The notes beneath the pieces are model-generated. The model had not been told where the DNA came from, searched no databases, and worked only from the letters and a program-made list of their open reading frames with translations. Positions 23,287 to 51,139 of a stretch of 64,000 bases of DNA are shown here, in pieces; position 1 is the first letter of the stretch; each line of letters starts with the position of its first letter. The stretch comes from Balanoglossus misakiensis. Lineage: Eukaryota; Animalia; Hemichordata. The position numbers and the translations under genes were made by a program. Location of the stretch: positions 2,511,344 to 2,575,343 of the forward strand of contig CM082584.2 in the NCBI GenBank assembly GCA_040954595.2. The letters run 5' to 3'.

Positions 23287-26022
23287 AGAGCATATCTTGC
23301 CTTTTTAAATCTTATCAGAAGGTTAAAAAATGATTGAAAGAAATCTAATATTTACCAAAAGTGACAATATTTTTCGGGTATCGATTTCTATAATATTTGT
23401 TTTGTTCTCATAAAATACTTCAAAATCCACCCTGTCCTGAAAATCTGAGTTCAGATTTGCTGCATTTCGGTCACGTGACGTGACGTCACAAGAGGAACCC
23501 TTCAGGTAGACCAGCTTTAGCGATGCTCACAGGTGTCATACGGTGTTTTCGTGCTTTTCTGTGTAATACCACAATGGGAAAAAGAGGTGGTTGCCGTGGT
23601 TGCAGCAACACATTACCTAGACGGAAGTCACCCGTGTGAATTCCCCGAAAACCAATGAAAGTCTATGCCACGATCATCGATATTGTACGGTGGATATGAA
23701 GCCATCCGGCGGCGGCGGCCGTAACTGTCAATGCATGACCGTTGAACGATAATCGGCCAGGTTTGAATCACGAGAAGACAATCCACACCCTTACAGGAAA
23801 ATAGAAGCCTGTCAGTAGGAGAGGTCGACCAGTGATCAATATTCAATTCAGAGCACAACTGATCGTTTATACCCGATATTGGTGTTCATTCAGTGTTCCA
23901 GCGACCGCGATTACACAGTAGAAGGTGAACTGGCAGGAGGCGTAAACACAATTTTGCGCTGGCCGACATCATGTCGAGATTGCTTATAATTATTCACTCT
24001 TTCGTCTGGCTACCCGGTACCCAGGGACCGCAAACTTCGATAATTAAGATTGACAGCAATCAATGTGAAAACTTGAACGTTCAAAATATTACTGTTACTA
24101 TTTCACATTTTTTTCAGTCATACCTTTGTATGGCTTCGGCTGAATGGTCGCCATCTTTCTTTTCTAATTTCTTTGTTTACAAGTTTTACGTCGCACTATG
24201 TCCGACTCATCGGCTCCAAAACACACTGTACAAATTTTGAAACAAAATGTGTTGAATAAATTTTGCCGCGTGTGAGTGAAAACCGTTTCCAAACTTGGAT
24301 ATTCGTGTGTATCAATGAAAATGTTTCATGCTTTGTGAGCGTGAGTGGGTCGGCCCGGCACGATCGCCTGTTGCTGTTGGTTGTATGGTTTCATTTTGTT
24401 ATAATGCAGTATGAAGCATGTGAAGGAACTTTCATGATTACAGCGACAAGTCATAAATGTTTCTGTTTGTCATCACCAAAAAGGCATATAGCTTACATGT
24501 AATTCAGAAGACAGAATTTTAGTGCTGGCATGGTACATATACATCGCGGCGCGATATGTGTCATCGCTGCTGACTGCGTGTACACGCATCGGCGCTGATG
24601 GAGTTCCCTTGTAATAACACGCGCGTATTTTGTCTGTTGAGGCAGTGATCGAAAATCGACAAAAGACCACGATATATCAGTTGTCAATAAGTTGACATTG
24701 TCCAAGATAAGTAGATTGAGACCCAACACTCTAGTCCTAAACCTCTGGGCAATATTCCACGGTTTAAGATGGGTCCCCCGGATCTTTTTGCCCGTTGCTA
24801 TGGGCCTTTGCAAGACATTACACCCCGATTTGGACTAAGCCGTTTTCAGAGTCTAACAAGGGGCTGGTAACTAGTTGAAAATCTGCACGATTGTGAGCGC
24901 GCGCCCCCTGACGCCATTGATATGCAAATTAGCTAGGTCAAATTTCAAAAGCCTAAGGCTTTTTATTCCGTGACCTCAAAAACGAACTTGATACGTATTC
25001 ATTAGTTGCTTGAACCAGGGAAGATCGTGACGGATTTTGTTTTCGAATATTATCGTTGTATCCTACGATTTCAGCATACCCGTACCACAGCGGAAAAAGT
25101 CATCGATTTTAGGTGTTTTTGGACGCACTCTTCCACCGGTATCGCTTCTTAGCACGACGAAAACCGAAAAAACGATCCGTCACACTGTGAGGAAGTGCGT
25201 TCTCAACAAGCAGGTCAAATTTGACTGGCGTACGTGGCCTATGAAAAAAGCCTTAGGGATTTTCGTGAACGGTTCAAAATCTCTGTGTACAAAACATTGG
25301 ATTTTTAGCGTTCGATCCAGTTACTGTGGTTACAGGACGCGCATGCTATCGCTGACCGCTGCTTTACCGTATTAGCGTGGCGGCCTATGGCCGGGCGGTA
25401 GCTGCCGTAAACATACTCGGACAAGGGGTGTGCACACAATCGTGTGTATTTTTAACTAGTTACAAGCCCCTTGTCGGACGTTCATAACGGTTTCGATCAA
25501 AATTGAGTGTAGTGTCCTATAAAGGCCCATAGAAACGAGCAAAAAGATACGGGGGACCCATCTTAATCGAGGCAGCAATCATTGTATGTGTAAGGTGCCT
25601 ATACACATCCGCTGCCATTGCATGTTGTGTACTGCTTGCAATGCGTAGCCGTAGCCTAACCGGGCCGAGTAGTGTTATTTTTTTCATAATCGCATCTCCC
25701 CTAGATGAAAAGGTATATATGTACATTTATTTTGAATGGAACGGGGGATCCAGAGGCTGACCCAGCAAAGCTGTTTAGATCACAGACATGTATGATTGCA
25801 ATTCAACCACTGCAATGTACAGTCTTGCAAACGTAAATGGGTTCCTCTTGTGACGTCACAGAAATGGGCGTGGCCCAAACAGAAGTTTTTTCTCAGGCCC
25901 TGAACGTTTTTAAATTTAACATTTATTTATCCATATGAAATAAGTAAAAGGACACCAGCATTTAACACACAAGCCCAATTATTATTTATCCTCAAAGTGT
26001 GTTTCGAGCTAAGATATGCTCT
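23287..26022 (+). mobile_element. Kolobok-like non-autonomous DNA transposon with decayed THAP remnant
   Basis: TTAA|AGAGCATATCTT ... AAGATATGCTCT|TTAA; subterminal inverted GTGACGTCACAAGAGGAACCC; from 23573 MGKR..CRGCSNT..EFP resembles a frameshifted THAP start. Confidence 0.8.
24768..25562. mobile_element. TTAA-specific element with ~115-bp imperfect TIRs nested in the Kolobok-like element
   Basis: TTAA|GATGGGTCCCCCG ... CGGGGGACCCATC|TTAA; inverted similarity extends to GGGGCTxGTAACTAGTT. Confidence 0.85.
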
Positions 26023-26642
26023 TTAAAAGATAAAAAAATTACACTTAAAAACCCCAAAGAAACCAAAACAGTTCTGAAAGACATTCCCTTTAAACCAAAA
26101 AAAGCAATGGAATGAAATTGTGCAGAATAAAAAGACGAGTTTTTAAACCCCTTTTAAAACTGTCTATAGATCCAGCATTGCGGATAGAAGGTGAGGTTGA
26201 TGACACATATTCGTAACCACATATTAATTGATCAGTTGATTGTTTTTACACCAAAGTCCTCAATATCCATGGCAATCTCTTTCTAGGAATTTTAACACTC
26301 TCTATCATTCTCATTTTAACAAAATCCCCTGAAACTCGTGTACCCTGTCAGCAAAACTTTGTCTGATTTTTAAAACAACAGATTACTTTTTCACCCTTGC
26401 AAACAAATTTTCAATGCTAAGTTTTCACATTTGTTAATTTGTTTATATTATGCATAATTATAATTGGAAAATTTCTGAGATACAATTTCAACAAACATGT
26501 GTTCAGTACGAGTGTGCGGTTGATTTCAAATTTTAAAATGTGTGCAATGGACAGACAGGATGCATGTTTTATTGTAACCATAGCAATATACAATCCCCAA
26601 ACAGTGTAGCCACAGAAGAGATCAATATCCACAGTTACATAC

Positions 26643-26765
26643 CTGCACATGCATGGCCATCCTCCAGCACATTGAAGCCTTGTCTGCAAGCGCAGCAATA
26701 ACTACCATGGGTATTCTGACAATAGTGTTGACACGCATTTCCACAACTGTGACATTTATTCATAT
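26643..26765 (-). pseudogene. Calcium-binding EGF-like exon (open frame, probably part of a dead fragment)
   Basis: CCAG acceptor, GTATGT donor, 123 bp, phase 1-1; DMNKCHSCGNACQHYCQNTHGSYCCACRQGFNVLEDGHACA. Confidence 0.85.
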
Positions 26766-27249
26766 CTGGAGGGTAAGAAGAAATTCGAAATAATTTACAA
26801 GCATTACATTATTCAAGATAAGCCTACTCTTAACAACTGGAATCTCACACCAAAGACAACTGGGCTCAGATTATAACAAGATGGGGATAATTTTTCTCAA
26901 TTTCATCATTTGAGACAACATATCCCCAAACTTATGTAGTGTCGACGTAACATTATAACATAGTTATATCACTGTCAGGCATTTGTGTCCTACAGTCAAG
27001 GGGTTTTAGACACCTGCAGTCATTTTGATGGCGTTGGTTTGAATCCCACCAGTGCCAGAAGTGTCCCTTACGAAAAAGGTTCTATAGAACTCTATAGACC
27101 TCTATAGAAACGTGTAGAATTCAATAGAAAATCAATAGAAATTTATTTTCTATAGAATTCTACAGGTGACTTCTATTAATTTTCAACAGAAAATCAATAG
27201 AATATTATTTTCTATAGAATTATACAGATGATTTCCATTAAACTAGCCG

Positions 27250-28272
27250 TCAATAGATTTTCTATTGAAAATATTACCTAGCATGAAATAAGTGAAAAAT
27301 GATTTTTAATAGGTTTTAACATGATTATCATACAATGACGAAGCAATTTGTAAGATTTGCCCCCATTACACATATTTCACTGTGAACAAAGTATATTTTA
27401 ACAGAAATCCACAGACTCTATTGAATTCTATTGATGTCAATAGATTTTCTATTGAAAAATATTGTCAACCTTGAAATGGTTGAAAGAAATATTTTTCCCT
27501 AGTTTTTAGCAAATGTGTGCACATAATCAACACAAAACGACAAATGAATTTGTCAGGTTTGGCCCAACTACATATATTTCACTGTGAACAGTGTATTTTA
27601 ACAAAAATCCACTGACTCTATTGAATTCTATTGCCGTCAATAGATTTTCTATTGAAAAATATTGTCAACCTTGAAATGGTTGAAAGAAATATTTTTCCCT
27701 AGTTTTTAGCAAATGTGTGCACATAATCATCACAAAATGACAAAGGAATTTGTCAGGTTTGGCCCAACTACATACATTTCACTGTGAACAGTGTATTTTA
27801 ACAAAAATCCACTGTCTCTATTGAATTCTATTGCCGTCAATAGATTTTCTATTGAAAAATATTGCCAACCATGAAATAGGTGAAAGAAACATTTTCCCCT
27901 AGTTTTTAGCAAATGTGTGCACATAATCAACACAAAACGACAAATGAATTTGTCAGGTTTGGCCCAACTACATATATTTCACTGTGAACAGTGTATTTTA
28001 ACAAAAATCCACTGACTCTATTGAATTCTATTGCCGTCAATAGATTTTCTATTGAAAAATATTGCCAACCATGAAATAGGTGAAAGAAACATTTTCCCCT
28101 AGTTTTTAGCAAATGTGTGCACATAATCATCACAAAATGACAAAGAGTTTGTCAGGTTTGCCCCAACTACATACATTTCACTGTGAACAGTGTATTTTAA
28201 CAAAAATCCACTGTCTCTATTGAATTCTATTGCCGTCAATAGATTTTCTATTGAAAAATATTGCCAACCATG
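27250..28272. repeat. Left subterminal tandem array, 200-bp unit, 4-5 copies
   Basis: CCCAACTACATA recurs near 27563, 27763, 27963 and 28162; each unit has several TCTATTGA/TCAATAGA motifs. Confidence 0.95.
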
Positions 28273-28598
28273 AACGGACGCTAAGGATTTTGATTAAGGC
28301 GAAGATTGTATCGTTTGGCCATGGAAAGTAACCAGTTCACCCCGAGCAAACAGATACCAGTATACATTCAGCTCAAACACACAGCTATTCATTCTTAATC
28401 ATTCTATTTTATATTGTGAATGAATACTTGACAAATATGTCTCTGTAAATAATTCATTTATTACAATTTCAAAATGATATCTGCAAAACACTGGTACATA
28501 TACAAATCTGTATATAAATACAAATCAGAAGAAACGGACTCTCAACTATAGTACTGGGGTAAGTGTTTGCTACCTACAGACTTTTTTTGCAGCCCTTA

Positions 28599-31500
28599 TC
28601 AGTCCCTTTCAAAAGGGTTGGGGAGTGGTGAGAGGTAAATTGACTCACCCATTCCAAGAACTACACATTTACGTCTCAAAAACGACGGTCGCACAGCAAT
28701 TCTTTCATGTGAAATCTCACGCAGTGGTTTTACATGTGTACACTGTATGCCAATTTCATTGTCAACAAACATTGACCTCCCACTTAAACACCTACTGGCT
28801 ATCAGGAATGATCTTTCATTACAGTGACAATCACCTTGGCATATGCAACCTGGCCTAAGAATTACAAGGTTTCTTATTACATACAATTGCTCATCTTGTC
28901 CCTGAAAATAATGGTTCGTTCTCTTTGCTGCCCTAGTGTAGCTACTTGTTGTGAACACAGCACCTGATATAGTGAATCTCTTGTAATATTTGGCATTCAC
29001 ATTCAAGATAGGGTGGCCCACAGCCTCCTCTATAGCTAACCTGTCTGTCAATCTTATTTCCCGTTTGTCAGCAGCTCCCATGGCCACAACCCCTGAGCAG
29101 CTATGAAAGTCCCTCTTTAAATGCACAATTCCTCTAGACAATTTGTCAAATAGTGGCCTCAGATCACTATCCTGTGGTATTATTGTGGATCTTCTTGATA
29201 AATCTCTCCACAGACAGAATGTGTTTGATATCTGTGAAGGCACACTTTGAGTACCCTGAAATAGCTTCATGATTACACCATTGTGACTTTCAAACACAAA
29301 GGAAGATGTAGCCCAGAGAGGTGCCCATTCCCTAACACTACTAGACAAATGCAGTAGAATGTGCATATTAAATGACATCACTTCTTTCCCATAAAGGCAT
29401 TCAGTTTGAGTCACAAACTTTCTGATTGCCTGCTCTGCCAGATCAACAGAGCGGGCTGTTACTTTTTCCTGAAGTAACGTGTGGATTCCAAAAACCAGCA
29501 AAAACCAATGGTTCAGAAAAACTGCAGGTAACACACCTCTCAGAACAATTAAAGAATAGAAAAGGAGAAATGCCCTCCACTCCGAACCTTTCCAATACTT
29601 TCTGTAATCTAACGATCGTGGTGTCCTGGTTATTTCATTTGGAGGAAACTGCTGCACCAAACAGGAATTAATTACACGTTGTTTAGCAGGAGCTAAGTAC
29701 CAGGGTTTCTGCTTGTTTTCACTGTCAAGCCAAAGTGAGGTGATTTGCCTGACAACCCCTAATAAAACGCAATGCAAAAAATCAGGAACAAACCCTTTCA
29801 CAATGTCGAAATTGGGAAGCAACATACACACACTGGGTCCCTTCACACCCAATATTGGTCGGTCTCTTTCAACCGCCTGCCTACAACAATCCTCATACTG
29901 ATCGTTATTCCTCAACTCAGGATGAGGAAGATCCTGTACACTATATACACGTGCATGACCATTGCCCTTTGCTATGTATTCCCCTGGGTGCAGGCACCAG
30001 TCACATCCATACTGCCCATTATACTGTTTGCAATTGCGCATCAAAGGCCTGGCAGCTGAATCAGAAGAACACAATAACACATGGACACCAGAACTTTGAT
30101 TTCTCCAGGTAAAACCATCATTACCCAATTTCACACATTCTTCAACAAATGGTGCCAAAAAACAATCCATCTGTGGTTTGGATTGACCAAACCATAGGCC
30201 AGGCATGAGAATATTTTGTTTTTGACATTTTGGAGTCAGTTCTGTCACTACACACTGAATGGGCCATATTGAGAAACCAGAGGACTTAAAGGCAGGGACC
30301 CCATCACAATTCCAGAGAAGGGTTAAGTCATTATCTCTTATGATACCATTTTCAAGGAGATCTTGATAAATGGAGCCATCCAATAAATTTGAAACTGACA
30401 ATTCACTATTAATATTCTGATTTTCTAATAAATCTACAAGTTGGTCCTTGATTGGCATTACAATGAAAAAATTGTTATTTGCTACAGATATTTGCTCACT
30501 GAAAGGCTCATTACAGCTACCACAAGTGGCGTCAGTTTGAATTTCGCCCTCGGCACCAAGATATGCCATACAACTACAGCAATAGAAGTGCTTCTTACAC
30601 GACACAGCTGTCTCAGCAAAACAGTTCTTAAAAAAGTATGGTGTTGCTGGTACAGTTTCTGGTGCTATCAGGTTAATGACGTGCAACAAGTCTTTGAGAG
30701 CATCTTTCGTAAGTCGGTGTCTGAGGACAAAAGCCTGGAGAAGTAGACAAAGCTGTTCTGTTGTGACATTCATCTCTCCAGTTCCTTCTTCAGCTCCCTG
30801 AGAATTAGAAAAATAGTAGTACATTTAGAAAAATAGGACAACCAGAAATAACATGAACAATGCAATGGTCACACTCACAGGACTGACACATTTAATTGTG
30901 ATTTGACATTTGTGAAAACAGGTTCTGATCTCTTATGCATTGATCACCAGATTTTGAAAACAGGGGTCATGCTCTAAATAATAGGCCTCCTTGAGAATTA
31001 AAATAAATGCATTCACAACCATAGAGACACTAGCTTTCATACTTGTATTTTATAATAACGATGTGTATTAAGTTGCATTAACATATAAAACAGATTGATT
31101 AGTGGAATACTAAACGATGTTGTAATAGCTGTCATGTTTCTGTCAAGGAATCAATGTGTATATTGCACCATGTCCACTTTTTCAAGTTGTAAATGCACAA
31201 CCTTCAGTAAGTACACTTACTTTGAAAGTAAATCATCAAAATAATGTGAAAAGTCATAGATCATAAGTGATTAAGGTAAGTTACCGCACAAAATTCAAAT
31301 TGGCAACCATAAAATTTTTAAAGTCAAAAGCAGAACCTACCAATTCATCACCACTTTCTCCTGTGCCCGTCCCATTAGTGTTTTCGTTTGATATGCGTGT
31401 GTGTATAATTTCTTCACTTTCTTCAATCTCTCCACTTCCGCCACTCAGTAAGTTGACATGTGACGTTTCCTGAGCTGGTACTTGGTCATCTATGATGAAT

Positions 31501-32390
31501 GATGTCTGATCATCTGATGTTTCGTCGGCTGATAAATAGTCATCTGTGTCTGGTTCTGTAGTGCTGTATTCATCAATGTCTGTATCTCTGTGAGAGAAAG
31601 TTAGTCCACTTCGATAACTGTCATGAGAGGCGTTACCATCATATAAATATTCATCATTGCCACTTTCAGATTGGTAGTCACTATTTACAGAACAACTGTC
31701 AGTGTCGATGGCGATATCATCAGTCTGAAAGATATGAATAGAATGTGGTTAAGATATGTATTTCAGTATAGCGGGACTACATAATGCATATTACATCATT
31801 TGATTCTAAATCTCAGAGGAAAGTGCTAATGCTTTAATAGTTCTTATAAAGAAAAGTAGGCTGGTGTCAGTAATGACCTGTTTTTTTTTGTTTTTTTCCC
31901 TCAATATTCGTAGTACTAAATTATTTTTCAATTAAAAAAATACTGCATCGGCATAAATGCTGCTATATTTAGACAAAGAGTTGGAGATGTACAAGCTAGC
32001 CTTTTGGACTTTAATAAAACCAAAAAGAACAGAAATAAAATGCATACACTACCTATGACACCCTATAATTATAACAATCACCGAGAAATGACAGACAATG
32101 CCAGTTTTCGCCCGGCGCTTGCTGCAGTTCCGTAGCCAGCCACTTTCCTCGATGTGTGTGTTACGGAAGGGGCACCTTTCCGTAACACACACATCGAGGA
32201 ATGTTGCAGGCTACGGAACTGCAGCTGCAGCAAGCGCGGCGCATACTTCAGGCCGTGGTAAAAAAAGAGCTACACTTACCTCTAAACCATGTTTATCGCG
32301 AATTCGCCATCTAAACAAGGTTCTCTTTGGAATACTGACTTCGGTATCATTTAGGTAACGCTTGTATGGACCGCGCACGACCCTCGACAT
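28599..32390 (-). CDS. EnSpm/CACTA-type DDE transposase, ~897 aa; exons 32390-32280, 31724-31341, 30797-28599
   Basis: Motifs NCDGVPAFKSS..SIWPI, DSAARP..NCKQYNGQYGCDWC, DFLHCVLLGV, WKGSEWR, FNMHILLHL, FVFESHNG. Exon 1 is MSRVVRGPYKRYL..IPKRT; exon 2 is acidic. All introns are GT-AG phase 0, with no stops. Confidence 0.92.
32121..32225. repeat. ~105-bp hairpin in transposase intron 1
   Basis: GCTGCAGTTCCGTAGCC..TTCCTCGATGTGTGTGTTACGGAA is mirrored by TTCCGTAACACACACATCGAGGAA..GGCTACGGAACTGCAGC. Confidence 0.85.
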
Positions 32391-32416
32391 GTCTCTTCCG
32401 CGACCTGATGATCTAG

Positions 32417-32460
32417 TGAATCAGCTGTGCAAGCGTCGGTGACTGCGGTGCATGCTGGGT
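32417..32460 (-). promoter_or_regulatory. Putative transposase promoter: ZNF143/Staf-like site plus CAGCTG motif
   Basis: On the minus strand ACCCAGCATGCA then ACAGCTGATTCA precede the ATG; both 12-mers recur exactly before the BEN gene. Confidence 0.5.
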
Positions 32461-32606
32461 GATAGATATGGCATCATCTCAAGTACAAATTTTAACGTTC
32501 CGATCGATCTGTGGTACTACTTTAAGGTGAATTTTGGCGTTTCAAAATAAAGTGAATGATATCTTAACGTGTTTTTTTTTCAAATAACATCTCAGCTCTA
32601 AGAAAT

Positions 32607-35600
32607 TTAAATAAATAATAATGTTTTATTGTCTTTTAGGCCTCCGGCCAATATGACAATTGCATGGTAAGATATATTACAGAACGAAATACAGCAACTA
32701 CAAAAAAAGAAACATTAGGTCACCTTCAAGCTTTCATGAAAAATATTCTTTCCTCAAAATCATGGCTTTATGTACAAATTTGCCAAGATTTCTTAACACT
32801 GTTGGCGACTTCGACCTCATCAGTGTTAAAAATTTCTCTTCGTAAATAGACTCAGAGTTGTCATGTGGTAATAAATATCTTAAGCTTTGATACAATGGGC
32901 ATAAAAATATTACATGAAATTCATCCTCCACACCTCCTGTACATATTTCACAGATTCTGTCTTCAAAGTCAATGTTGGCATAGCTGCCTTCCTGGACTCT
33001 TAAACCAAGACATGAACATCTCAATCGTGCTAGTGCATGTCTATGTTTTGGCTCTGTAATTTCACAAAGATATTTTTCTGGTTCAAGCATGCTTTTAAAA
33101 TTACGATATGTACGAAGTCTGTCTTTTGTACATACTTCACTGTACCACTCTTGTTTGTTAACATCGGAAAGACGTTGTTTAAACTCACTTATAAAAGATG
33201 AAATATCTCCCACCCCTTGTGATAACCAGACAATGCCAAACCCATATGAATAAAGAATTTGCTTAACCTCTGTAGCCCATGATGTGTGTCCATTTTCATC
33301 CATTGTAAACAACAATTTGTACGCATGCGCAGCCATCCTGTCATCTGTGAGTTCAGTGAGACGCAACCAATATTTAACACATTTTATGACTGAATTTAAA
33401 TAAAGTGGATATCTACCACACTCGCCATATACTGCTTCGTTTGTAGTGCTCTGACCCACTCCCAGAAAGTGCTTGCAAAACCTTAAATGGACTCTTTCTA
33501 TCTCCATATGTTTTTTGTATCCCCAAATATCAGCTCCATACAATAAAATTGGCAGTATCAGTGTATCAAAAAGTTTAAAATATACATCTCTTTTTATCAT
33601 ACCAGCTTTACGTTCAAATTTAAAGATTAAAAACATAGCTTTCCGTGCTTGAGCAGCCAGATTACCTACAGCTTTGCTCCACGTGTTTCTACAGGATAAC
33701 AATAATCCAAGATACTTATATGAAGTCACAACCTCTAGAGTCTTTCCATTCATTTTCCACACTTCACTCTTTGCATTATGCCCCCCTTTACGGAATACTA
33801 CGATCTTGGTTTTATCTATGTTAACTTGAAGTTTCCATATGTTGCAAAAATCGTTGAGTATGTTAATTAACCTTTGTAACCCTATTACAGAGTCTGCAAA
33901 TATAACAATATCGTCGGCATAAAGTAAAAGAAATAAATCGTACATTTGTTGCGTCAGTTGGATGCCTCTGGCACCTGTGGAAATAATCATGTGGTACAAC
34001 TCATCAATGAAGAGGGAGAACAACACTGGGCTTAATACACTCCCTTGCCTTACACCTCTGTTACAGTTAAAATATTCTGAAACACCCCCATCTAGACGAA
34101 CACAAGATTTCACATCACTATACATAGATTTCACAATGTTATACATCTTGCCAGATAAGCCAATCGACTGCAGTTTGAAAAAAAGACATCTGTGATCCAC
34201 AGAATCAAATGCTTTTGCAAAATCTACAAAAAGACAGTAAAATTTCCCCTTCCTTCTTCTGATGTAATTTTGTATGATGGCATGTAAAGTAAATATATTA
34301 TCCATTGTTGAAAACCCTTTACGAAATCCCGCTTGTGCATTACAAATAGCATTGGTATTTTCAGCCCATCTATACAACCTTTCATTTAAAATACCACAAA
34401 ATATTTTACCAAATACATCTAAAAGCGTAATTCCCCTGTAATTATTTGGATCTGTTCTAGATCCCTTTTTGTACAATGGTATTATAATTCCCCGTGACCA
34501 CCCTGCTGGGAAGTTACCCGTATCAAAGATGTTGTTAAACAGCTTATTCATGATAGGTAGCATTGTGGGTATAGAGCATTTGAAAAATTCGGCTGGTATT
34601 CCATCTGGGCCCGGGGCTTTACCATTTTTCAGATCTAAAACTGCTTTCATTATTTCCCGGTCAGTAATATTTGAATTCATAAAATCTGAGATATCGACTT
34701 CGGCATTCCAGCCTACAACCTGTACATGTGTATCCCCGGGTAATACATTATGGGGATTATTTAATTGTGTGAAATATTCAACCCATTGTTTGCCAGAGAT
34801 GGGAAAGTAACTCTGGGTACAACTTTGACTGCTTCTAATAAAATGCCACATATCATTACTACCAGACACACAATCCCAACGGGATTTAAATTTTGCTGAA
34901 AGTGCATCCGTAAAATCCTTTTTCAGCTTCTGGCATGTATTTCTAAAAATATTACGACTACGTTTGTAGACTTGCAAAGACCCTTCTGAGTTATTCTTCC
35001 TGAATTCACGTAGATTTCTTTTAACTTCTTGCTTTTGTTGGAAACAAACAGAGTCAAACCATGGTGGTTGTTGCGGGCGTGCTTGGTTTCGTTTGCTGTT
35101 CTGGCATTTCATGCTGCTACCAGCCAGCTGGAAAGCTTTAACAATACAAGCTATTGCTTCATCATTATTAACACCAATGCTTACGTCACATTTCTCAAAC
35201 AAAGCAATCACATCACCTGAATTACATTTACATACAAATGTGTGTTCCTCATTAGCATTCCATCTGTACCTTGTATACTCATAAATATTCACATTACTAT
35301 CCACCTGTTGAGTTAATTTACATTGAAGAGTAGTTTCCAGAGGAAAGTGATCTGATTCGTCTCTTTCTGCCACCTTAAAATACACAAATGAATTGAAAAG
35401 GTTCGATGAAACAATGACATAATCAACCACACTCTTTCCGTTGTTAGAAGTACATGTAATGTGTCCATCTCTGTCCCCATCTACTCTGCCATTTAACACA
35501 TGCATTGAAAGTGTACAACATAAAGAAAGTAAACTTCTACCAAAAGTATTTGTTGTTTTGTCTTTTGATTTACGTGTCAGGCAAAAAGTGTCCCCATCGT

Positions 35601-36108
35601 AAATATCAGCTGGTATTGACAAGTAACTTGTATCATCATTTATAATATAATCATACCCATCCGCAATCCGTGCATTTAAATCCCCCAATATAATATTATC
35701 TACATGCTCAAAATTAGTGTTCAGTCGGACAAGTTCATTTTCTAAAATAGTAATCCCGTTATACTCGTTCGTATAAACATGTGACCCTTCGGGTGGAATA
35801 TACACAGCCCCTAGTAAAATATCTCTGACAGTGCCAAAATAATTTGCGTTCAACAGGAAAAACATTGCATCATTCATTTCTGTATCAATACGCTTAACAC
35901 CAGCCATTATATTCTTAGCAATGCCCACAGTAACACCTCCACTCGGTCTACCCTTTGTTCCTTCTCTTCTATCTCTTACAAAAGTAAATAAAACATGATC
36001 TGGAAAATAATTACTAACATCTTTACCGCTTGTAAGCCATGTTTCAAGCAGGCAAAATATGTGAAAACATGCACAATATTGTATGAAACTTTTATCCCAT
36101 AAATGACC
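32607..36108 (-). mobile_element. 5'-truncated LINE (L2/CR1 group, Crack/Daphne-like)
   Basis: 11-bp TSD CTCTAAGAAAT (32596-32606 and 36109-36119); 3' GGCCGGAGGCC stem-loop, AATAAA and a short (ATT/ATTT) tail. Confidence 0.93.
32734..36108 (-). CDS. LINE ORF2: APE endonuclease + reverse transcriptase + C-terminal CCHC motif; open up to the 5' truncation
   Basis: CLLETW, GGV, GDLNA, VVDY, SDHFP (APE); KAPGPDG, QAGFRKG, FVDFAKAFDSV, GVRQGSVLSP, YADD (RT); CEIC..EDEFHVIFLC. The frame continues ~60 codons upstream of the listed ORF. Confidence 0.95.
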   Translation of the reverse strand, partial: GHLWDKSFIQYCACFHIFCLLETWLTSGKDVSNYFPDHVLFTFVRDRREGTKGRPSGGVTVGIAKNIMAGVKRIDTEMNDAMFFLLNANYFGTVRDILLGAVYIPPEGSHVYTNEYNGITILENELVRLNTNFEHVDNIILGDLNARIADGYDYIINDDTSYLSIPADIYDGDTFCLTRKSKDKTTNTFGRSLLSLCCTLSMHVLNGRVDGDRDGHITCTSNNGKSVVDYVIVSSNLFNSFVYFKVAERDESDHFPLETTLQCKLTQQVDSNVNIYEYTRYRWNANEEHTFVCKCNSGDVIALFEKCDVSIGVNNDEAIACIVKAFQLAGSSMKCQNSKRNQARPQQPPWFDSVCFQQKQEVKRNLREFRKNNSEGSLQVYKRSRNIFRNTCQKLKKDFTDALSAKFKSRWDCVSGSNDMWHFIRSSQSCTQSYFPISGKQWVEYFTQLNNPHNVLPGDTHVQVVGWNAEVDISDFMNSNITDREIMKAVLDLKNGKAPGPDGIPAEFFKCSIPTMLPIMNKLFNNIFDTGNFPAGWSRGIIIPLYKKGSRTDPNNYRGITLLDVFGKIFCGILNERLYRWAENTNAICNAQAGFRKGFSTMDNIFTLHAIIQNYIRRRKGKFYCLFVDFAKAFDSVDHRCLFFKLQSIGLSGKMYNIVKSMYSDVKSCVRLDGGVSEYFNCNRGVRQGSVLSPVLFSLFIDELYHMIISTGARGIQLTQQMYDLFLLLYADDIVIFADSVIGLQRLINILNDFCNIWKLQVNIDKTKIVVFRKGGHNAKSEVWKMNGKTLEVVTSYKYLGLLLSCRNTWSKAVGNLAAQARKAMFLIFKFERKAGMIKRDVYFKLFDTLILPILLYGADIWGYKKHMEIERVHLRFCKHFLGVGQSTTNEAVYGECGRYPLYLNSVIKCVKYWLRLTELTDDRMAAHAYKLLFTMDENGHTSWATEVKQILYSYGFGIVWLSQGVGDISSFISEFKQRLSDVNKQEWYSEVCTKDRLRTYRNFKSMLEPEKYLCEITEPKHRHALARLRCSCLGLRVQEGSYANIDFEDRICEICTGGVEDEFHVIFLCPLYQSLRYLLPHDNSESIYEEKFLTLMRSKSPTVLRNLGKFVHKAMILRKEYFS

Positions 36109-36187
36109 CTCTAAGAAATGCTGTATTTTAAAATCACATGACCTACTGCATGACCTTTGACTCTTCTCATAAACGCCCGCATTTCTT

Positions 36188-36249
36188 ACCCAGCATGCAT
36201 CGAGGTAAATAAATAGTCGGCGAACTCCTGACCTTTTACAGCTGATTCA
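36188..36249 (+). promoter_or_regulatory. Putative BEN-gene promoter, mirror image of 32417-32460
   Basis: ACCCAGCATGCA at 36188 and ACAGCTGATTCA at 36238. Confidence 0.5.
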
Positions 36250-36332
36250 GTAACCACCGAAGACACACTACGCGTCACTCGCTACCAGCTCCGCTTAAGA
36301 TTTCGCTATTTACGAACGTCGATCTAGTCACC

Positions 36333-39300
36333 ATGAAGTACGCTTTATTTGATTTTTACGAAGAAAAGAGTGTTGAAGTTGGTGAGACGAATTGGATAGA
36401 AGATCTCGATGAAGACGACGTTATGTGTTTTGACTTCGACGAAGATTGTGCTGTCCAGTGGTCATCAAAGAAGGCAGGAAGAGATCCGGCGAGATATGTA
36501 GCAAAAGTTATCAAGTTTAGCGGTAAGAATTGTTTGGATTTTTTCAAAACTCAAAAAAAACGTGTCAGGTAGAAACATTACCCAATGTTGAAGACGTTCA
36601 TTGTAGAAAGTTACCTTTATCTCGATCCCAGGGTCTTGGGCTCCCTTGAACCAAACACAGCTTGTTTACTTCCTGTTCATTGTTATACTATTTGCATAAC
36701 AAAACGAGTTGCCAGGAAAGCCAGCAACCCCTTTGTTTTACTTTGTGACACAATTTTTTTACGTGGTTTGTGTTGTGCATTTTTGATCGTCAGCAAAAGT
36801 TTCTCATTCAGTTGTGTGTGTGTGTGTTTTTCACAACCAGGTCATAATGTTTATCTTTACAGATGACAGGCAGGAGCTGTTGCGACTAGCCAACGTCTAT
36901 GTCAAAAAAAGGGGTGAACACAAACATTAAGACTCCAGAATATGGACGGGGGAAACGTGAAAAGGCACCAAAGAGAATCTACACCGACAGCGAAGATGAT
37001 GAAGATGATTATGTACCGGTAAGTTGATATTTAACTACCATGTGGCTGATGCAGAATTCAATATGATTTATCTAGGTACAGATGATATTAATTTCTCGTT
37101 GTCAATATAAACACCCATTTTCAAAACTCCATGCCAAGTGTTCAGAAGTATCTCACAATAATCATTTCATTTCTTTTTTAGGAAAAAAATAACTTGAATA
37201 AAAAAAAGAAGATCAGCCAAAAGAATTCGTCTTTAAATTTGCTGAGAAAGTTAGAAAGCAAGAAGACATCTGAAGTTCGTAAAAAAATGGAGGAGGATGT
37301 CCAGTCACTTAAGTCTGTAAGTACTGGCAATGTCATACGCCACAATTTCTGCCCCTGAAGCATATACTTTTACTTCCAAACTTGCACAAAAGCTAAAATA
37401 ATGCTGACGTATAAGAGAGTGTTGTGAGCTTGTGTGGCTTAATTATGAAACAGGGATTGCACTAGTGTTTGCTCAGAATGAGTCCCTGTCACATGAAATT
37501 AAAGACAGGAAATTAAAATTTTTGTATTTATGTGAGAGATGGGACCCCTCTGTGTAAAAAGTAAGAGTCCCCCTGAAAAGTTCGGGAAGCAAAATATGGG
37601 GTTAACGCAACCCCTGCAAAATGTATCTTTAAAATGTGAGCAAAGTTATGCAATTATTGAAACTAATAATATTTCCATCAAAAAGTGACTGCAGTTCAGT
37701 GCTGTTGATGGGTAAATATCACAAGCATGTTGAAATCCATGTATGAACTGTGTTGTTATTGTTGACAACTGTGATTTTTAGTCTATTTCATTAATGTTCC
37801 TCTGCATTCTAGAGTTCATTCCGTGCTTCAACACCAGTGTCCAGTGGCTCAGAAGGCTATGATGAGGAAAAGCTACACCAAGAAATAAGGGAATTGAAGG
37901 AGGAAAATGCTGCACTACGCTATTCTCTTCGAGTGTTAAAAGGTAAAAGAATATTGATACACGCATTGAATAAAGTCAGTGGATTGTTTTAGTTCTTGTA
38001 TATTTTTAATGCAATGAGTAGGTTTTAGCTGAATCAAATTATTTTGTCAGTGTTTTTTTTGTTTTATTTTTAGAAATATCAAAAGTCAACAGCCAAAATA
38101 TGCCACAGAATGACTGTTTTTGAAAATACTCATGAATATCACAAAAGAACATCATTTTCGGCATTTTTTTGACGAGAAATTGAAGTATCAAGGACTCCAT
38201 ATATGTTTTGAAATACAAAGTAAAATGTTACCATAATTAATTTATAAATGAAAAACATTTAATTTATTCACTTGTACATGATGACTAAGCTGGGCAAGCT
38301 GTAACTTACCTTTTTCAGCACCAATGAAAGCCTTCATTTGTGACCAGCTTTCTCAAACTATGTGTTTTGTAGTTACTTGACAATAGTTTGATAATGCTGG
38401 TCAGTATGTAAACATCTCAGTTCACCACAATTAAAATAATTTTGTTTATGGATGATGGTCCACTGTCTTATTGGTTAACAATATTTTTTTGCCAGGATTG
38501 TCTCTTTTTTATTCCTTTTCCTATGAACTATTGGAGTTAAATCAATGAACATATGTCCTATACCTCTATTTTCTAATCTTTTCAAATGGTATAGAGTTAC
38601 CTGGCCTGCTTGGACAAATTGCTGATGTAAAAAGAACATTTGGTGTAAAGACTGGTGCACCTGCAGTCTCAAAGACAAATAACTCCAGTGGAACACATGA
38701 TGCCCAATTGAACAGTGAAGAGGTAACTGTTGACATCTATTTCAATTTATCATGAATGTCTGATTTCAGGAATCTGCATAGACATAGTCATAGTCATTCA
38801 AATAATACTTCTGCTTCTTAGGTTCAACCATATGGCCTAAGTAAGAAAATTCTTTGTTCTGCATGTGTATGTTTTGCGAGATTTCATGAAAAAAACTTTT
38901 CTGCCTGCAAATGTTTGTATACATGCTTTGGGAAATGTGATTGGAACACCTGCATGCTTGCAGAATGTCACATTTGAGTGCAACTTAACAGGGTGAAAAA
39001 TTAGTTTCTGCTGAGATTCTTGATAAGGTGCTTGTATTACATGGAAACTATCGAGTAAATATTAAATTTACCTGTTAAAAATTTCTGTGTTTCTGAACTT
39101 GTGCACTTACCTATCAAAATCTGAGTGGATGCAAAACAAAGAATTTAATTATTTTGGTCATAAAGTTTTTGTTTATTTATCTGCAGACCTGATGATTGCA
39201 ACTCTGTTTAGAACAGATCATGGCTCTGCAACTTTACTTCCATGGAAAATGTGGTTGTATTGTTAGAGCTGTTGATTTCATAGAAAATAGAAAGTATTGT

Positions 39301-40161
39301 AAGAACTCTGTGATAGAGTTTTTACTGTACTTTCTATTTTATCAGGTTTTCTATGACAGAAATCATATTTATTTTGTGTCTGCCTCTAGTGTTACCAATT
39401 ATTTTGGTCTTTTTCAGATTTTGGTCAATGATGAGATGATAGTAACTGCCAAGCAGCTGAGCCGCGTTGACAAATCAACAGCGAAGAAAATGACGTATGA
39501 TTTGATGGCAGTGGTGTTTGATAGGAAAACACTCAGGACTCATTCGTATAGTGGCAGAGTGTGCAACTCAGTCAAGGGTTCTTTACCCAAACCAGCGCTG
39601 GATGCCGACAAAATAAGAGCCATTAAAGGTATGTAGGTATTAAGTTACTTATCATCTCCAATTATTAATTTGCTATTTTAGGTCATAGGAATACACAAAG
39701 ATATATTGGCATTTTGTATATTTGGAGTGATCAGTGATGTATACCTCTTTAACATAGTGTAACCTGCTGTAGATAGGGTGCAAATTTTGCAGTGCTTTTG
39801 CAAAATCTGCTTTGGTCTGCTAATGGAGACCTGTATGTGGAATGAGATAGGCCATCTTTAAAAAGTTGTAAAAGCGTTTAAGGGACTGCAAATCAAATAT
39901 ACCATTCTCTCTACCGTAACCTTGATATATTTTCATTTAGTTTGTTCTTTGTTTCTGGCGGTTAGGTTTTAGAAAAAAAAAATATAGTATGGCAAACAAA
40001 GACATCTCTAAGGTTTGAGCTTTGGTTCAGTACAATTTCATTCAGCAATTATTTTTCTCTGTTTCCCCACAGATATTGTATGCAGCAAGTTTGACTGCAA
40101 GGTTGCTGAGGTAGAGCAGTACATTAAAATGAAAATTTACTCCGAAGCAAAACACAAGTAG
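36333..40161 (+). CDS. BEN-domain protein with central coiled coil; exons 36333-36522, 36863-37018, 37182-37316, 37813-37942, 38595-38722, 39418-39628, 40073-40161; one +1 frameshift in A7 at 36904-36910
   Basis: GT-AG introns are phase-consistent once one A is removed; coiled coil LHQEIRELKEENAALRYSLRVL; BEN-like KMTYDLMAVVFDRKTLRTHSYSG...KPALDADKIRAIKDIVCSKF; AATAAA at 40250. Confidence 0.82.
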
Positions 40162-40486
40162 TGTGGTTAACTGTTTCATTTATGTGTTTTGCTTATCTTT
40201 ATTTATTTAAACTCTATTTTTCATGTCACCTTTTTTATTGATTTATTGCAATAAAATGTTAAGTTTTAATTTGATGAGTATGTTGGTTTTTTCTCAAATA
40301 TTTCACTGAAAGCCAGCAGAAAACTAATTTGACTGAGGCAACACTGTATTTAGCACATTTATGTGTTAATATTAAACAACAGACTAAAAGAATATGCTGA
40401 GTATTCAGTGAAGTATTTTTTTTTATAAATATCAATCTTTTTGCCCCAATCCCACCCCTCTGTCTTTGGTAACCAGATAATACAGG

Positions 40487-41490
40487 ATCAATACACATCT
40501 ATAACTCTTCTATAGAAGTTCAATAGAAAATCAATTGAAATCTATATCTCTTCTATAGAAAATCAATACACATCTATAACTCTTTTATAGAAGTTCAATA
40601 GAAAATCAATTGAAATCTATATCTCTTCTATAGAAAATCAATAGCATATCAATGGAAATCTAGATCTCTTATATAGAAAATCAATACACATCGATAACTC
40701 TTCTATAGAAAATCAATAGAATATCAATTGAAATCTATATCTCTTCTATAGAAAATCAATACACATCGATAACTCTTCTATAGAAAATCAATAGAATATC
40801 AATTGAAATCTATATCTCTTCTATAGAAAATCAATACACATCGATAACTCTTCTATAGAAAATCAATAGAATATCAATTGAAATCTATATCTCTTCTATA
40901 GAAAATCAATACACATCGATAACTCTTCTATAGAAAATCAATAGAATATCAATTGAAATCTATATCTCTTCTATAGAAAATCAATACACATCGATAACTC
41001 TTCTATAGAAAATCAATAGAATATCAATTGAAATCTATATCTCTTCTATAGAAAATCAATACACATCTATAACGCTTTTATAGAAGTTCAATAGAAAATC
41101 AATTGAAATCTAGATCTCTTCTATAGAAAATCAATACACATCGATAACTCTTCTATAGAAAATCAATAGAATATCAATTGAAATCTATATCTCTTCTATA
41201 GAAAATCAATACACATCGATAACTCTTCTATAGAAAATCAATAGAATATCAATTGAAATCTATATCTCTTCTATAGAAAATCAATACACATCTATAACTC
41301 TTTTATAGAAGTTCAATAGAAAATCAATTGAAATCTATATCTCTTCTATAGAAAATCAATACACATCGATAACTCTTCTATAGAAAATCAATAGAATATC
41401 AATTGAAATCTATATCTCTTCTATAGAAAATCAATACACATCTATAACTCTTCTATAGAAGTTCAATAGAAAATCAATTGAAATCTATAT
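40487..41490. repeat. Right subterminal tandem array, 75-bp unit, ~13 copies
   Basis: TCGATAACTC recurs at 40691, 40766, 40841, 40916 and 40991; the unit is built from TTCTATAGAA, TCAATAGAA and TCAATTGAA motifs. Confidence 0.95.
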
Positions 41491-41796
41491 CTCTTCTATA
41501 GAAGTTTAATTGAAAAGTGGCCAAAAGTCCATAGAAGTCAATAGAATTTCCATAGAAATTCCATTGAGTTTCCATGGAATATCCATTGATTCTTAATAGA
41601 AATTTTTATTGAAAAGCAATAGAAGTTCTATAGAACTTTTTCGTAAGGGAATCAATCAAAGTGTATTATAAAACCAGATTCCAAGAAAATACAGCTGTTC
41701 AAAGGGGCTTAGGCTTTTTTCATCTTCCCTTGTCAGGTTGATGTGACTATTGTTAGTATGCAGTGTTGTATGAAATGTTTTACATCGCTTACTTAC

Positions 41797-47984: not shown

Positions 47985-49993
47985 AAGGTTGAAAATTAAT
48001 TCTATGTGGCCACTTAAGATTCTTGTGCTACTCCCAACAATATGTTGAAACCCACAATTGATGTATAAAATACCATCCACTAAATATTTAAATGTCACCA
48101 AAAACATTTTACTCTAAATAAATAAATATATTCTATAAAAACATATTTTTTAGACATGTTGCATATTTACGTAACAGTAGTAAAAAATGTGAATGATAAC
48201 ATTACACATTCACGGGCTATGTTGACAAGTGAAGTATAAATGGGTATATTAGCATGCTGTTTGGAGTAGAACAAGAAATTCCCATTGATACTCAGAACAA
48301 AAATATATGTACATCAATTAAAGCCAAAAGTTACAGCTAATGTCCCGTTAAGTGCATTGTAATTCAGAAAACTTCTGGAGCAGTGAATAAATCCTACTAT
48401 TCCTAGTATATCAGAAGTTTTTTTCATTTTAAAAATCAAGCTAGTTGCTTTAAAAAAAAATGAGACACTACTTTGTACAAAAGTTATGACAGCTTGCATT
48501 CACGCAGATTTGAGCCAGACATCTCAAAGCGTTAACAAAAAAACATAGAGCATACTGTTTTTGCGAAGGTAATTTAAATTGCTTGTTACGTGATAGTAGT
48601 GAAAACAATGGTGACATTGAAGTAACCGAAATGTTCTCCTATATCAAGCTTTCAGAGATAATTAACAGAGAAATGTTTATTTCAAAAAGTGAATGTCTTA
48701 TTTTTTAGCTTATACAGTCACAGTATGTAATAGAGGGACTGTGATATAGTGCACTGGTTTGGCTGTTGTTTCACTACAGATTTTTGTGGTGGGGGTCACG
48801 GGTGGGTCTATGATGGGGGAAACCAGCATAGAACCCCCCCCCCCCCCTCCACCCTCCCCCTAGCTGTGTTTCCATAGTAGTACTAAATGTGACATTATTA
48901 TATGACTCAGAAGGTCACATAGCTCTGCGTACAGGTCTGTGTGTTCCCGGCTGTATGCAGAGCTAATGGTCACACAGAGAAACCACACGACAGAGATCTC
49001 ACCATCTCAAAAAGCTGACTCTGAAAAGCATGTAAAAGAATTAAGACTGGCTTACCTGTAGGAGGACCTGTGTCACACATCTCTGCCCGCCAAGGTCTTG
49101 CCAACGACCCTGGCGATGTCTGTCATCTAGTCTTGCTCCAAGCGATGCTAATCACACTGGCGGCGCGTTGTACTGTTCCTTTCCTTTATCTACAGGCACA
49201 GCGACTGCCGTAAAGCCAAGTCATCACCGGACTCATCATATCTGATATACTTCCCTGGCCGGTCGGGGCAACACCGACGTCACGATAAAACGTCGTAGGT
49301 CCCGTGGCAACACCGTAGCTACACCCTAATGAGAGACAATGTCTAGTGATCTGAGTGACGGCAACTGATCCAGGATCTCAATCACTCACCCGGCTCTGTC
49401 AGTGTCATGGCTCTCTCTCTCAACTACGGTGCGACCTGTGATGACGACCACCTCGCAAAGTTCTGCCAAGCGCCGCCGCGTCCCATGTAGAAAGGTTGCG
49501 AAACCCTTTGAAAACACTGCCAAGAATGCTCCATTATCCGAAATATGTTCTTTCACTGACGTCTCCACTCATGAGAAATTTAAAAAAGGGGCGTAACACG
49601 CTGTTGTAAAAGATCAGCTGATTCGCGACCAAAACATTCACGATTGACCCTTGACCTAGGATAGTCTGTACCCTCGATCCAGCGCCAGCTAAGTTGGCGT
49701 TGTTAAAATAATTATTAGGTAAACAGCCATCACTATAAGCTATAGATGTAATTCAGTAAACCAAAATCTTTAAAAATATATGTTGTCAAGAACAATTTAT
49801 AGACCAAGGCCATGGCCAGAGGTACATCCGAAAAATACCAACTGTACATGGTTATTCTTGTATAACCTTTGACCCCGATTTGTAAACAGTGCTGCATGTT
49901 TGAAGTATCGCTCTTAAAAATTGAGATTCACCTGATGCAGTGGTTTTATATGAAAGCCAGTTGGGGACATGTACATACGCAATAAATAAAAAA

Positions 49994-50226
49994 TTATCTC
50001 GAGATCTCGAGATAATGCTATTCGTTTTCCTGACTTTTTATTTTTTTATCTCGAGATCTCGAGATAATTCCAATTCGTTTTCCCGACTTTTTATTTTTTT
50101 ATCTCGAGATCTCGAGATAATTCAAGTTCGTTTTCCCGACTTTTTATTTTTTTTATCTCGAGATCTCGAGATAATTCCAATTCGTTTTCCCGACTTTTTA
50201 TTTTTTTATCTCGAGATCTCGAGATA
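49994..50226. repeat. Left TIR array: 5 copies of a 22-bp palindrome, ~53-bp period
   Basis: TTATCTCGAGATCTCGAGATAA counted 5 times. Confidence 0.95.
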
Positions 50227-50660
50227 AATTTGTCTAAAGAGGGCGGGTGTATTGGTACGGAGACTGTCCAGAGAGGGCGGTGTATCGGTACAGAGAATAT
50301 GGCGTTCTTTTACTAGCTTGACCTAGTACCAGGACTTTTCGTCGGATTCTGCCTTACATGCTGCATCGTATCTTATCAGACTGACTGAGTGTTGGTAAGT
50401 TGAGATTTTACCTCCTTCTCATAACCGTTAGATTTGTCGTACACGTAACATGACCACACGATGCACAATTTGTACTGGTTTGTGATGTGGCAATCTATTG
50501 AGTCGCCTTGCACGTCAAGCGTCATCATGATCATGCCAAACACGATCGACGCGACGTTGACAATGTGCTGCATGCAATAGGTTGACTGAGACGTTCTTGT
50601 CAGTATCTCGTACTCAACTTAACTTGCTTGATTTTTGATTCATGATGTAACATATGCCAT

Positions 50661-50695
<35 letters not shown>

Positions 50696-51038
50696 ATCAC
50701 AACTTGAGGCTAACTCTGGCCTTATGCCACGCTGTTTGAAACATATATCATACATGATTCAACTTGTGTGTGGGGCGGATAGTTACATCGCCTAGGATCA
50801 AGTTGCCATAACTGGATTCTTCCAATAAATAAATGCACTTTAACTTGATCTTGAATATTAAACAATGCAATGTTAACATCAGTACAGCTGCTGTGATTTA
50901 TTTTACTTTGCTTCAGTCTGTGATTATGACACAGACAAATGTGAGTGTGTATGGTGACCTCAGTACATCCAAGGTCAAACGTCAACAACTCTTCAGTTGA
51001 TATGAAAGTTTCAAACAAAAAAATTAAAGCAAAATAGG

Positions 51039-51078
<40 letters not shown>

Positions 51079-51139
51079 CTGTCTCTATGTATTAATGAGT
51101 GTGTGTGTAATGTTTGTGCACATTGATTGACTTGATTTA

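What the first reader, a model, noticed from the sequence alone, without database searches (positions are those of the whole stretch)
27065..41649. CACTA/EnSpm element with a divergent multi-exon BEN-domain partner gene
Seen: inside one pair of TIRs are an intact ~897-aa transposase and a head-to-head 7-exon gene encoding an N-terminal domain, a coiled coil and a BEN domain. Known: plant En/Spm needs a second DNA-binding protein (TnpA), and BEN domains are sequence-specific DNA-binding/chromatin modules with reported transposon links. Inference: the BEN protein is this animal element's TnpA equivalent, and such elements could be a source of host BEN-solo genes.
Basis: partly seen in the sequence, partly recalled or inferred. 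Interest (0 to 1): 0.8.

Follow-up and report, generated by a model that had tools for sequence, protein, structure and literature searches.

The report
Animal transposon with Tudor-BEN partner gene
A damaged copy of a young animal cut-and-paste transposon carries, head-to-head with its transposase, a spliced gene for a BEN-domain protein that recurs in the same position in many related transposons and likely binds the palindromic repeats lining the element's ends, a role known so far only from an unrelated plant protein.

Summary
Real, with corrections. 27065-41649 is an animal EnSpm/CACTA-type (CMC) element with CCC termini and subterminal arrays of TC(A/T)AT(A/T)GA palindromes. The 897-codon transposase frame and the 7-exon divergent gene exist. 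Exon 6 scores above the Pfam BEN cut-off; five of six introns are joined in one RNA-like contig. There is also no target-site duplication. The pairing is family-wide: 22 of 80 related loci (18 of 53 clusters) hold a partner exon, all 25 hits upstream on the opposite strand, and 12 of 12 loci with enough sequence beyond transposase exon 1. Partner similarity tracks transposase similarity. The N-terminal domain is predicted Tudor-like. That the protein binds the end repeats like plant TnpA is inferred (about 55%), not shown; it is not a TnpA homologue. I found no paper describing the pairing in ten searches, but Repbase and three key BEN papers were unreadable. The scan had noted the same pairing in other genomes.

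The parts
27065..27091 (+). Terminal inverted repeat, CCC start, at the transposase 3' side; no target-site duplication
27080..28274 (.). Subterminal repeats: short palindrome cluster, then 4.8 copies of a 200-bp unit (27319-28274); 26 matches to TC(A/T)AT(A/T)GA in 27065-28300, 0.28 expected
28599..30797 (-). Transposase exon 3 (DDE core with C(2)C and H(3)H motifs); lacks 18 nt at 30085 relative to sister copies
31341..31724 (-). Transposase exon 2, acidic linker (predicted from splice signals and frame; no RNA joint seen)
32280..32390 (-). Transposase exon 1 with start codon; conserved basic N-terminal motif shared with homologues
32596..36108 (-). Nested LINE (endonuclease plus reverse transcriptase frame, 5'-truncated), 11-bp target duplication; absent from the majority form in runs X1 and X2; splits the shared promoter region
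36333..36522 (+). Partner exon 1: predicted Tudor-like domain
36863..37018 (+). Partner exon 2, with a +1 frameshift in the A run at 36904 in this copy
37182..37316 (+). Partner exon 3 (basic linker); the X3 spliced contig has one extra A at 37199
37813..37942 (+). Partner exon 4, predicted coiled coil
38595..38722 (+). Partner exon 5
39418..39628 (+). Partner exon 6, first two thirds of the BEN domain
40073..40161 (+). Partner exon 7, end of BEN domain and stop; AATAAA at 40250
40508..41623 (.). Subterminal repeats: 13 copies of a 75-bp unit (40519-41503) plus short palindromes; 51 matches to TC(A/T)AT(A/T)GA in 40491-41649, 0.91 expected
41624..41649 (-). Terminal inverted repeat at the BEN gene 3' side

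Best explanation
This is a damaged copy of an 11-kb animal EnSpm/CACTA-type DNA transposon whose divergent second gene encodes a BEN-domain protein with a predicted Tudor-like domain and coiled coil, which likely binds as a dimer to the palindromic repeats at both ends of the element and so would help the transposase pair the ends or keep them accessible. Shown: the anatomy, the splicing, the family-wide linkage, the three defects of this copy. Inferred: one short bidirectional promoter (about 430 bp, CpG-rich) drives both genes; the coiled coil dimerises two BEN domains; each dimer reads one palindrome; arrays of bound dimers bring the ends together or shield them; the transposase reads the terminal tip and cuts. 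The Tudor-like domain may read chromatin or DNA; which is open. This copy probably cannot supply either protein but keeps both ends, so it could be moved in trans.
For: Linkage: partner exon in 22 of 80 loci, 18 of 53 clusters; 25 of 25 hits upstream on the opposite strand although 136 kb downstream and both strands were searched; 0 hits in reversed loci. 12 of 12 loci (10 clusters) with transposase exon 1 found and 1.2 kb or more beyond it have a partner exon; gap between the first exons 311-471 bp in 7 of 9 loci with both. Both complete relatives delimited (L003, L076) enclose the BEN exon. Partner similarity tracks transposase identity: rho 0.32, p 0.012 (n=13, N-terminal domain); rho 0.43, p 0.005 (n=10, BEN). 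pN below pS in 13 of 13 pairs, pairs not independent. Ends are lined with palindromes here (77 matches in 2.4 kb, 0 in the 12-kb interior) and in 23 of 63 relatives (0 of 600 shuffles, 0 of 63 coding controls). Nearest solved structures are Insensitive, Bsg25A and BEND6. Insensitive binds the palindrome TCCAATTGGA as a homodimer (PMC4281564, passages); NACC BEN domains bind ACATGT (PMC8887127, passages). A BEN-like fold reads transposon ends in Tn3 transposase (PMC9579193, passage). L001 shares the first 13 terminal bases with this element but has a different subterminal palindrome, consistent with two different readers.
Against: No binding was measured. Matches to the Insensitive consensus with up to 2 mismatches are only about twice background at the ends (5.7 and 7.8 per kb against about 3). 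L076, a complete element with a BEN exon, has no strong palindromic array. The other transposon in this window has dense TCTCGAGA palindromic arrays and no BEN hit, so such arrays do not need a BEN protein. No motif copies lie in the shared promoter. L068 and L069 (one cluster, 6.7-6.8 kb upstream) show no partner; 8 of 17 loci with 4 kb or more upstream are negative. The one spliced contig has an extra A in exon 3, so it may come from a frameshifted copy. All read evidence is one sample of one study.
Confidence: 0.55

Rival explanations
1. The partner is a chromatin or transcription regulator of the element (anti-silencing factor, insulator or self-repressor) acting through other sites or through its Tudor-like domain, while the transposase's own DNA-binding domain reads the end repeats.
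For: N-terminal model matches hybrid Tudor domains of KDM4C and ARID4B (Z 7.3 and 7.0, next unrelated row 4.1). BEN-solo proteins act as repressors and insulator factors (PMC4281564). The TnpA-type domain is typically fused to animal transposases. Palindromic arrays occur without BEN.
Against: No other repeated candidate site was seen inside the element. Z below 8 may reflect only a common fold. A regulator bound at the end arrays would fall under the best explanation.
Confidence: 0.27
2. The partner is a targeting factor: it binds host chromatin or host DNA sites and steers the transposase to insertion sites, as proposed for the Myb/SANT partner of Harbinger elements (recalled).
For: Reader-like Tudor fold plus DNA-binding domain; conserved two-gene layout.
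Against: No target preference was seen or tested; this reading leaves the palindromic end arrays unexplained.
Confidence: 0.12
3. The BEN gene is captured host cargo with no role in the element's life cycle.
For: Homologues are annotated as host genes (BEND6-like, insensitive-like). Some loci lack a detectable partner.
Against: Same side, strand and short gap across transposases only 35-45% identical; co-descent; purifying selection; shared phase-1 splice donor after the BEN exon in 5 of 9 loci checked, as in the window.
Confidence: 0.06

Closest known systems
Animal CACTA-related TRC elements (SmTRC1 of Schistosoma mansoni; Tribolium and Aedes relatives), PMC1636069, passages; EnSpm within the CMC/CMCT clade, PMC12730594, passages
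   Same: CCC termini, Transposase_21-type enzyme, C(2)C and H(3-4)H motifs, tandem repeats, 2-bp target duplication in relative L076.
   Different: The passages read describe no separate second gene; here a divergent spliced Tudor-like/coiled-coil/BEN gene shares the promoter region. This copy has no target duplication.
Maize En/Spm and Arabidopsis Spm with TnpD and TnpA (PMC1636069 passage; bioRxiv 10.64898/2026.08.24.746577, passages and section 6)
   Same: Two element-encoded proteins; dense short motifs near both ends; TnpA binds terminal motif clusters.
   Different: TnpA has a tandem helix-turn-helix domain derived from the transposase, often by alternative splicing, and is restricted to flowering plants. 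Here the second protein is BEN-type, on the opposite strand, and the promoter is central and free of the motif.
BEN-solo factors: Drosophila Insensitive (PDB 4ix7), Bsg25A (4x0g), human BEND6 (7yul), mouse Bend5
   Same: One C-terminal BEN domain, closest in sequence to these; coiled coil before it, as stated for Bend5 (PMC9233729, passage).
   Different: Transposon-borne, and with a predicted Tudor-like N-terminal domain. Whether host BEND5 shares that N-terminal domain was not tested (I recall a similar region; no tool gave the sequence).
Tn3-family transposase DBD1 (PMC9579193, passage)
   Same: A BEN-like fold recognises transposon end sequences.
   Different: Bacterial, fused to the transposase, structural likeness only.
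PIF/Harbinger two-gene elements with a Myb/SANT or MADF partner (search listing; mechanism recalled)
   Same: Transposase plus a separate DNA-binding partner gene; source of domesticated host genes.
   Different: Different transposase superfamily and different DNA-binding fold.

Membership tests
EnSpm/CACTA (CMC clade), animal branch | DDE transposase with C(2)C and H(3-4)H motifs between second D and E | tested here: met
   Motifs in order at exon-3 residues 164, 244, 264, 479, 502, conserved in alignment A1; definition from PMC12730594; which acidic residues are catalytic is recalled.
EnSpm/CACTA (CMC clade), animal branch | Pfam Transposase_21 (PF02992) | tested here: inconclusive
   E 1.1e-5, 25.1 bits, below the 28.6 cut-off; it is the only family hit. 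The closest homologue and many others carry PF02992.
EnSpm/CACTA (CMC clade), animal branch | Terminal inverted repeats with CCC core (animal TRC type) | tested here: met
   PMC1636069
EnSpm/CACTA (CMC clade), animal branch | 2-bp target-site duplication | tested here: inconclusive
   Absent in this copy, whose two flanks are not contiguous; present in L076, absent in L003: 1 of 3 complete elements.
EnSpm/CACTA (CMC clade), animal branch | Subterminal repeats at both ends | tested here: met
Plant CACTA with TnpA | CACTA/CACTG termini | tested here: not met
   Termini begin CCCTT.
Plant CACTA with TnpA | Second protein with tandem helix-turn-helix TnpA domain | tested here: not met
   Second protein has BEN and a Tudor-like model; exons 1, 3, 4, 6, 7 and full-length homologues gave no TnpA-type Pfam hit; exons 2 and 5 were not scanned.
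Plant CACTA with TnpA | Second protein binds subterminal motifs and is needed for transposition | not testable with these tools
   Needs binding and excision assays.
BEN-solo DNA-binding factors | Single BEN domain above the Pfam cut-off | tested here: met
   Exon 6, 30.9 bits; full-length homologue P0129, 45.6 bits, one stretch.
BEN-solo DNA-binding factors | No other recognisable domain | tested here: inconclusive
   No Pfam family for the N-terminal domain, but its model is Tudor-like at Z 7.3.
BEN-solo DNA-binding factors | Sequence-specific binding of a palindrome as a homodimer | not testable with these tools
   Only motif resemblance, about twice background.

The most novel reading that the evidence does not exclude
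A large clade of animal EnSpm transposons are two-component machines in which a Tudor-BEN protein, unrelated to plant TnpA, reads element-specific palindromes at the ends, each lineage with its own protein-palindrome pair; these partner genes account for many 'BEND6-like' and 'insensitive-like' genes in animal annotations and are the pool from which host BEN-solo factors such as BEND5, BEND6 and Insensitive were domesticated.
Probability: 0.3. Interest if true: 0.85.

Novelty: new variant of a known kind. Interest (0 to 1): 0.6.

Why it matters
It would show that animal and plant EnSpm elements reached the same two-protein design with unrelated DNA-binding domains. It gives a ready set of natural protein-motif pairs (six different end palindromes) for testing how BEN domains change specificity. 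It suggests why animal EnSpm elements may need a second gene to be reconstituted. It warns that multi-copy 'BEND6-like' gene annotations may be transposon parts, and it makes the origin of BEN-solo repressors and insulator proteins a testable phylogenetic question.

Tried and rejected
No whole genome is held, so copy number and flanks of other copies rest on contigs only. No RNA holder was listed; X3 is recorded as 'DNA?' and I read it as RNA only from its GT..AG joints. Word-based protein search with exon 6 found nothing; the search with P0129 found only itself. Viral contigs hold no transposase relative. The single-sequence model of P0129 was unusable (mean pLDDT 36.6). Atlas search with exon 1 was below the recognition mark. 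Sequence search of the N-terminal profile against solved structures gave nothing, nor did the transposase profile. The complex prediction of transposase exon 3 with the N-terminal domain gave no answer (score 0.00). The left flank's usual continuation seen in contigs is not in the window, so I could not tell an adjacent deletion from recombination between copies or misassembly. The idea that the LINE is a standing part of the element was rejected. The idea that the ends match the Insensitive site beyond chance was downgraded to a hint. PMC3613608, PMC2477736 and DOI 10.1016/j.cub.2023.05.011 are not held. PMC10027918 has no occurrence of BEN, CACTA, EnSpm or CMC. A phylogeny against host BEND5, BEND6 and Insensitive was not run for lack of full-length sequences.
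Full report
Anatomy. The element runs from 27065 to 41649. Its ends are inverted copies that begin CCC, identical for 13 bases and alike over about 26. The flanks give no 2- or 3-base duplication. The left flank is a high-copy repeat whose usual continuation, seen as a loose end in runs X1 and X2, is not the right flank and is not in the window; the flanks are therefore not one split target site. Inside the ends lie 4.8 copies of a 200-bp unit and 13 copies of a 75-bp unit. Both are built around TC(A/T)AT(A/T)GA: 26 and 51 matches against 0.28 and 0.91 expected from shuffles, none in the 12-kb interior, 5 in the 49 kb outside.

Transposase. Three minus-strand exons give 897 codons. Exon 3 hits only Pfam Transposase_21 (E 1.1e-5, below cut-off) and has the CMC motifs in order. 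The closest named homologue is from the hemichordate Glandiceps talaboti (64%); the rest are about 33-48% identical, from fishes, echinoderms, a coral, an oyster, a sea spider and unnamed contigs. The host is thus likely a marine deuterostome; this is not established. The frame is open but lacks 18 bases at 30085 relative to X1 and X2 contigs, just before the second conserved Asp; 18 of 19 homologues are longer there. The majority contigs have their own faults: single-base changes of length at 29516 and 29060, with 11 and 13 stops in the two shifted frames between them. So the commonest form in this sample seems to have a dead transposase. Contigs drop rare variants, so an intact master copy is not excluded. 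No splice joint of the transposase was seen.

Partner gene. Seven plus-strand exons run from 36333 to 40161. As they stand, translation stops at codon 86; exons 3-7 are in frame to a single stop. The break is an extra A at 36904 that X1 and X2 contigs lack; without it the product would be 345 residues. It may be a mutation or an assembly error. One 845-base contig of run X3 joins five of the six introns exactly at my GT..AG sites, joints that X1 and X2 do not show. X3 is recorded as 'DNA?', so reading it as RNA is my inference. That contig has an extra A at 37199, so it may come from a frameshifted copy. The tool showed only 12 of 25 length changes and 40 of 136 substitutions, so I cannot certify that the majority partner gene is free of other faults. 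Exon 6 passes the BEN cut-off. A full-length homologue, P0129 from Ptychodera flava, annotated BEND6-like, shares both the exon-1 domain (E 1.6e-16 among 32 proteins) and BEN. Of the 32 representatives returned, 4 are repeat-protein noise. Nearest solved structures are Insensitive, Bsg25A and BEND6. The exon-1 domain folds confidently (pLDDT 83) and matches hybrid Tudor domains of KDM4 and ARID4 (Foldseek E 0.12 at best, TM 0.71; Z 7.3, rmsd 1.7 over 55 residues). That is a moderate match and shows no function.

Nested LINE. A 1,170-codon stop-free frame (endonuclease, reverse transcriptase) lies between the genes. X1 and X2 contigs skip 3,513 bases from 32595 to 36109, with 11 letters fitting both sides, and the window has that 11-base duplication. 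The LINE is cut at its 5' end; the first 46 codons of the listed frame are element DNA. Without it the element is 11,072 bp and the start codons are 429 bp apart, in CpG-rich DNA (observed/expected 1.1-1.4 against 0.6 for the window). The window copy differs from the majority contig by about 1% (16 of 2,106, 10 of 1,467 and 8 of 651 bases), so the family is young. Element depth is 12-18 times that of one short related element with the same end, a rough hint of a dozen or more copies; depth is not a copy number.

Linkage. A metagenome scan found 326 relatives and kept the best 80 loci, 53 clusters at 80% identity. With profiles seeded from library proteins and grown on the loci, 16 loci have the N-terminal exon and 9 the BEN exon, 22 loci and 18 clusters in all; reversed loci gave none. 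The BEN count was already 9 with the unexpanded profile, and 5 of 6 of these exons scanned pass Pfam's cut-off. All 25 hits lie upstream on the opposite strand. Most loci are short: positives are 20 of 43 with 1.5 kb upstream, 9 of 17 with 4 kb, 8 of 10 with 6.5 kb, and 12 of 12 where transposase exon 1 was found with 1.2 kb beyond it. L068 and L069 are clear negatives; L055 has an upstream minus-strand frame that looks like a divergent N-terminal exon but was not counted. Partner-bearing clusters are spread over most clades of the transposase tree (62 sequences; clusters whose best piece was under 380 residues left out). Two complete relatives enclose the BEN exon: L076 (6.5 kb, 2-bp duplication) and L003 (12.5 kb, none). 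Partner and transposase similarity correlate, and amino-acid change is well below silent change in 13 of 13 pairs. Only 3 loci show both partner domains, so that every N-terminal exon belongs to a BEN gene is inferred from those, the window and P0129.

End motifs. In 23 of 63 loci with 400 bases or more downstream, one palindromic 8-mer occurs four or more times: ACCATGGT 9, TCTATAGA 5, CATATATG 3, ACTATAGT 3, TGCATGCA 2, AGTATACT 1; 0 of 600 shuffles and 0 of 63 coding controls do so. Palindromes suit a dimer, and BEN proteins of this type bind palindromes as dimers (PMC4281564, PMC8887127; passages). But L076 lacks such an array, the unrelated element at 49949-58535 has one without a BEN hit, the motifs also follow transposase clades, and likeness to the Insensitive site is only twice background.

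Mechanism. Within that, a role in pairing the ends and a role in keeping them free of silencing cannot be separated. Rivals are a regulator acting elsewhere (0.27), a targeting factor (0.12) and passive cargo (0.06).

Literature. Ten searches showed no paper linking BEN genes to EnSpm elements: BEN domain + EnSpm + transposon gave 0; three of EnSpm, BEN, transposon-encoded, Tudor gave 0; the one listed paper holding BEN domain, transposase and CACTA does not link them (PMC5704228, passages). Most listings were seen only in part. A 2026 preprint compared 962 Spm-encoded proteins, mentions unnamed accessory proteins, and has no 'BEN' in its main text; its supplements, which I could not see, may bear on novelty. 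Repbase and three BEN papers were not readable. Other papers seen as passages only: PMC9579193, PMC12730594, PMC11601247, PMC1636069, PMC11075544, PMC9233729, PMC6004678. Earlier notes of this scan report the same pairing in at least three other genomes; they are unchecked and not counted as support.

Verdict. A real, family-wide two-gene design in animal EnSpm elements, seen here in a broken copy; new variant of a known kind; interest 0.6.

Noticed in passing
window 49949-58535: A second complete DNA transposon: 52-bp perfect inverted ends, 6-bp flank repeat GTTTTA on both sides, 52/53-bp arrays of TCTCGAGA palindromes, a HECT-domain frame (52371-54539, +) and an integrase-core frame (56626-57663, -). 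Looks like IS3EU (name recalled).
   Followed up: partly
window 28599-30797 against runs X1, X2: The majority form in the reads has two single-base length changes that break the transposase while the BEN exon-2 frame is open, so the commonest copies may be non-autonomous but keep the partner.
   Followed up: partly
window 27064-27173 against runs X1, X2: A 400-base contig with the same end, 11% diverged and folding back on itself, suggests a short non-autonomous element of this family.
   Followed up: no
window 32121-32225 and 39284-39340: Near-perfect hairpins in transposase intron 1 (51-bp arms) and partner intron 5.
   Followed up: no
window 25600-27064: Left flank is high-copy repeat DNA (depth about 3-60 times the element's); 24764-25566 has 142-bp inverted arms.
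   Followed up: no
window 62104-63502: Two 176-codon frames, the first with a weak DDE_Tnp_ISAZ013 hit (E 0.0055); possibly another transposase remnant.
   Followed up: no
L001 about 9330-9360: A fish-clade relative ends in the same 13 terminal bases as this element but uses AGTATACT repeats.
   Followed up: partly
P0125, P0153-P0156, P0157, P0139: Partner-like proteins are annotated as 'early boundary activity protein-like' or 'insensitive-like' and occur as several near-identical loci in fishes and an ant, as expected of transposon genes.
   Followed up: no
L008:67-288 and L042:858-1073: BEN exon lies only 0.8-1.4 kb upstream of the main transposase exon, suggesting compact or internally deleted elements.
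   Followed up: no
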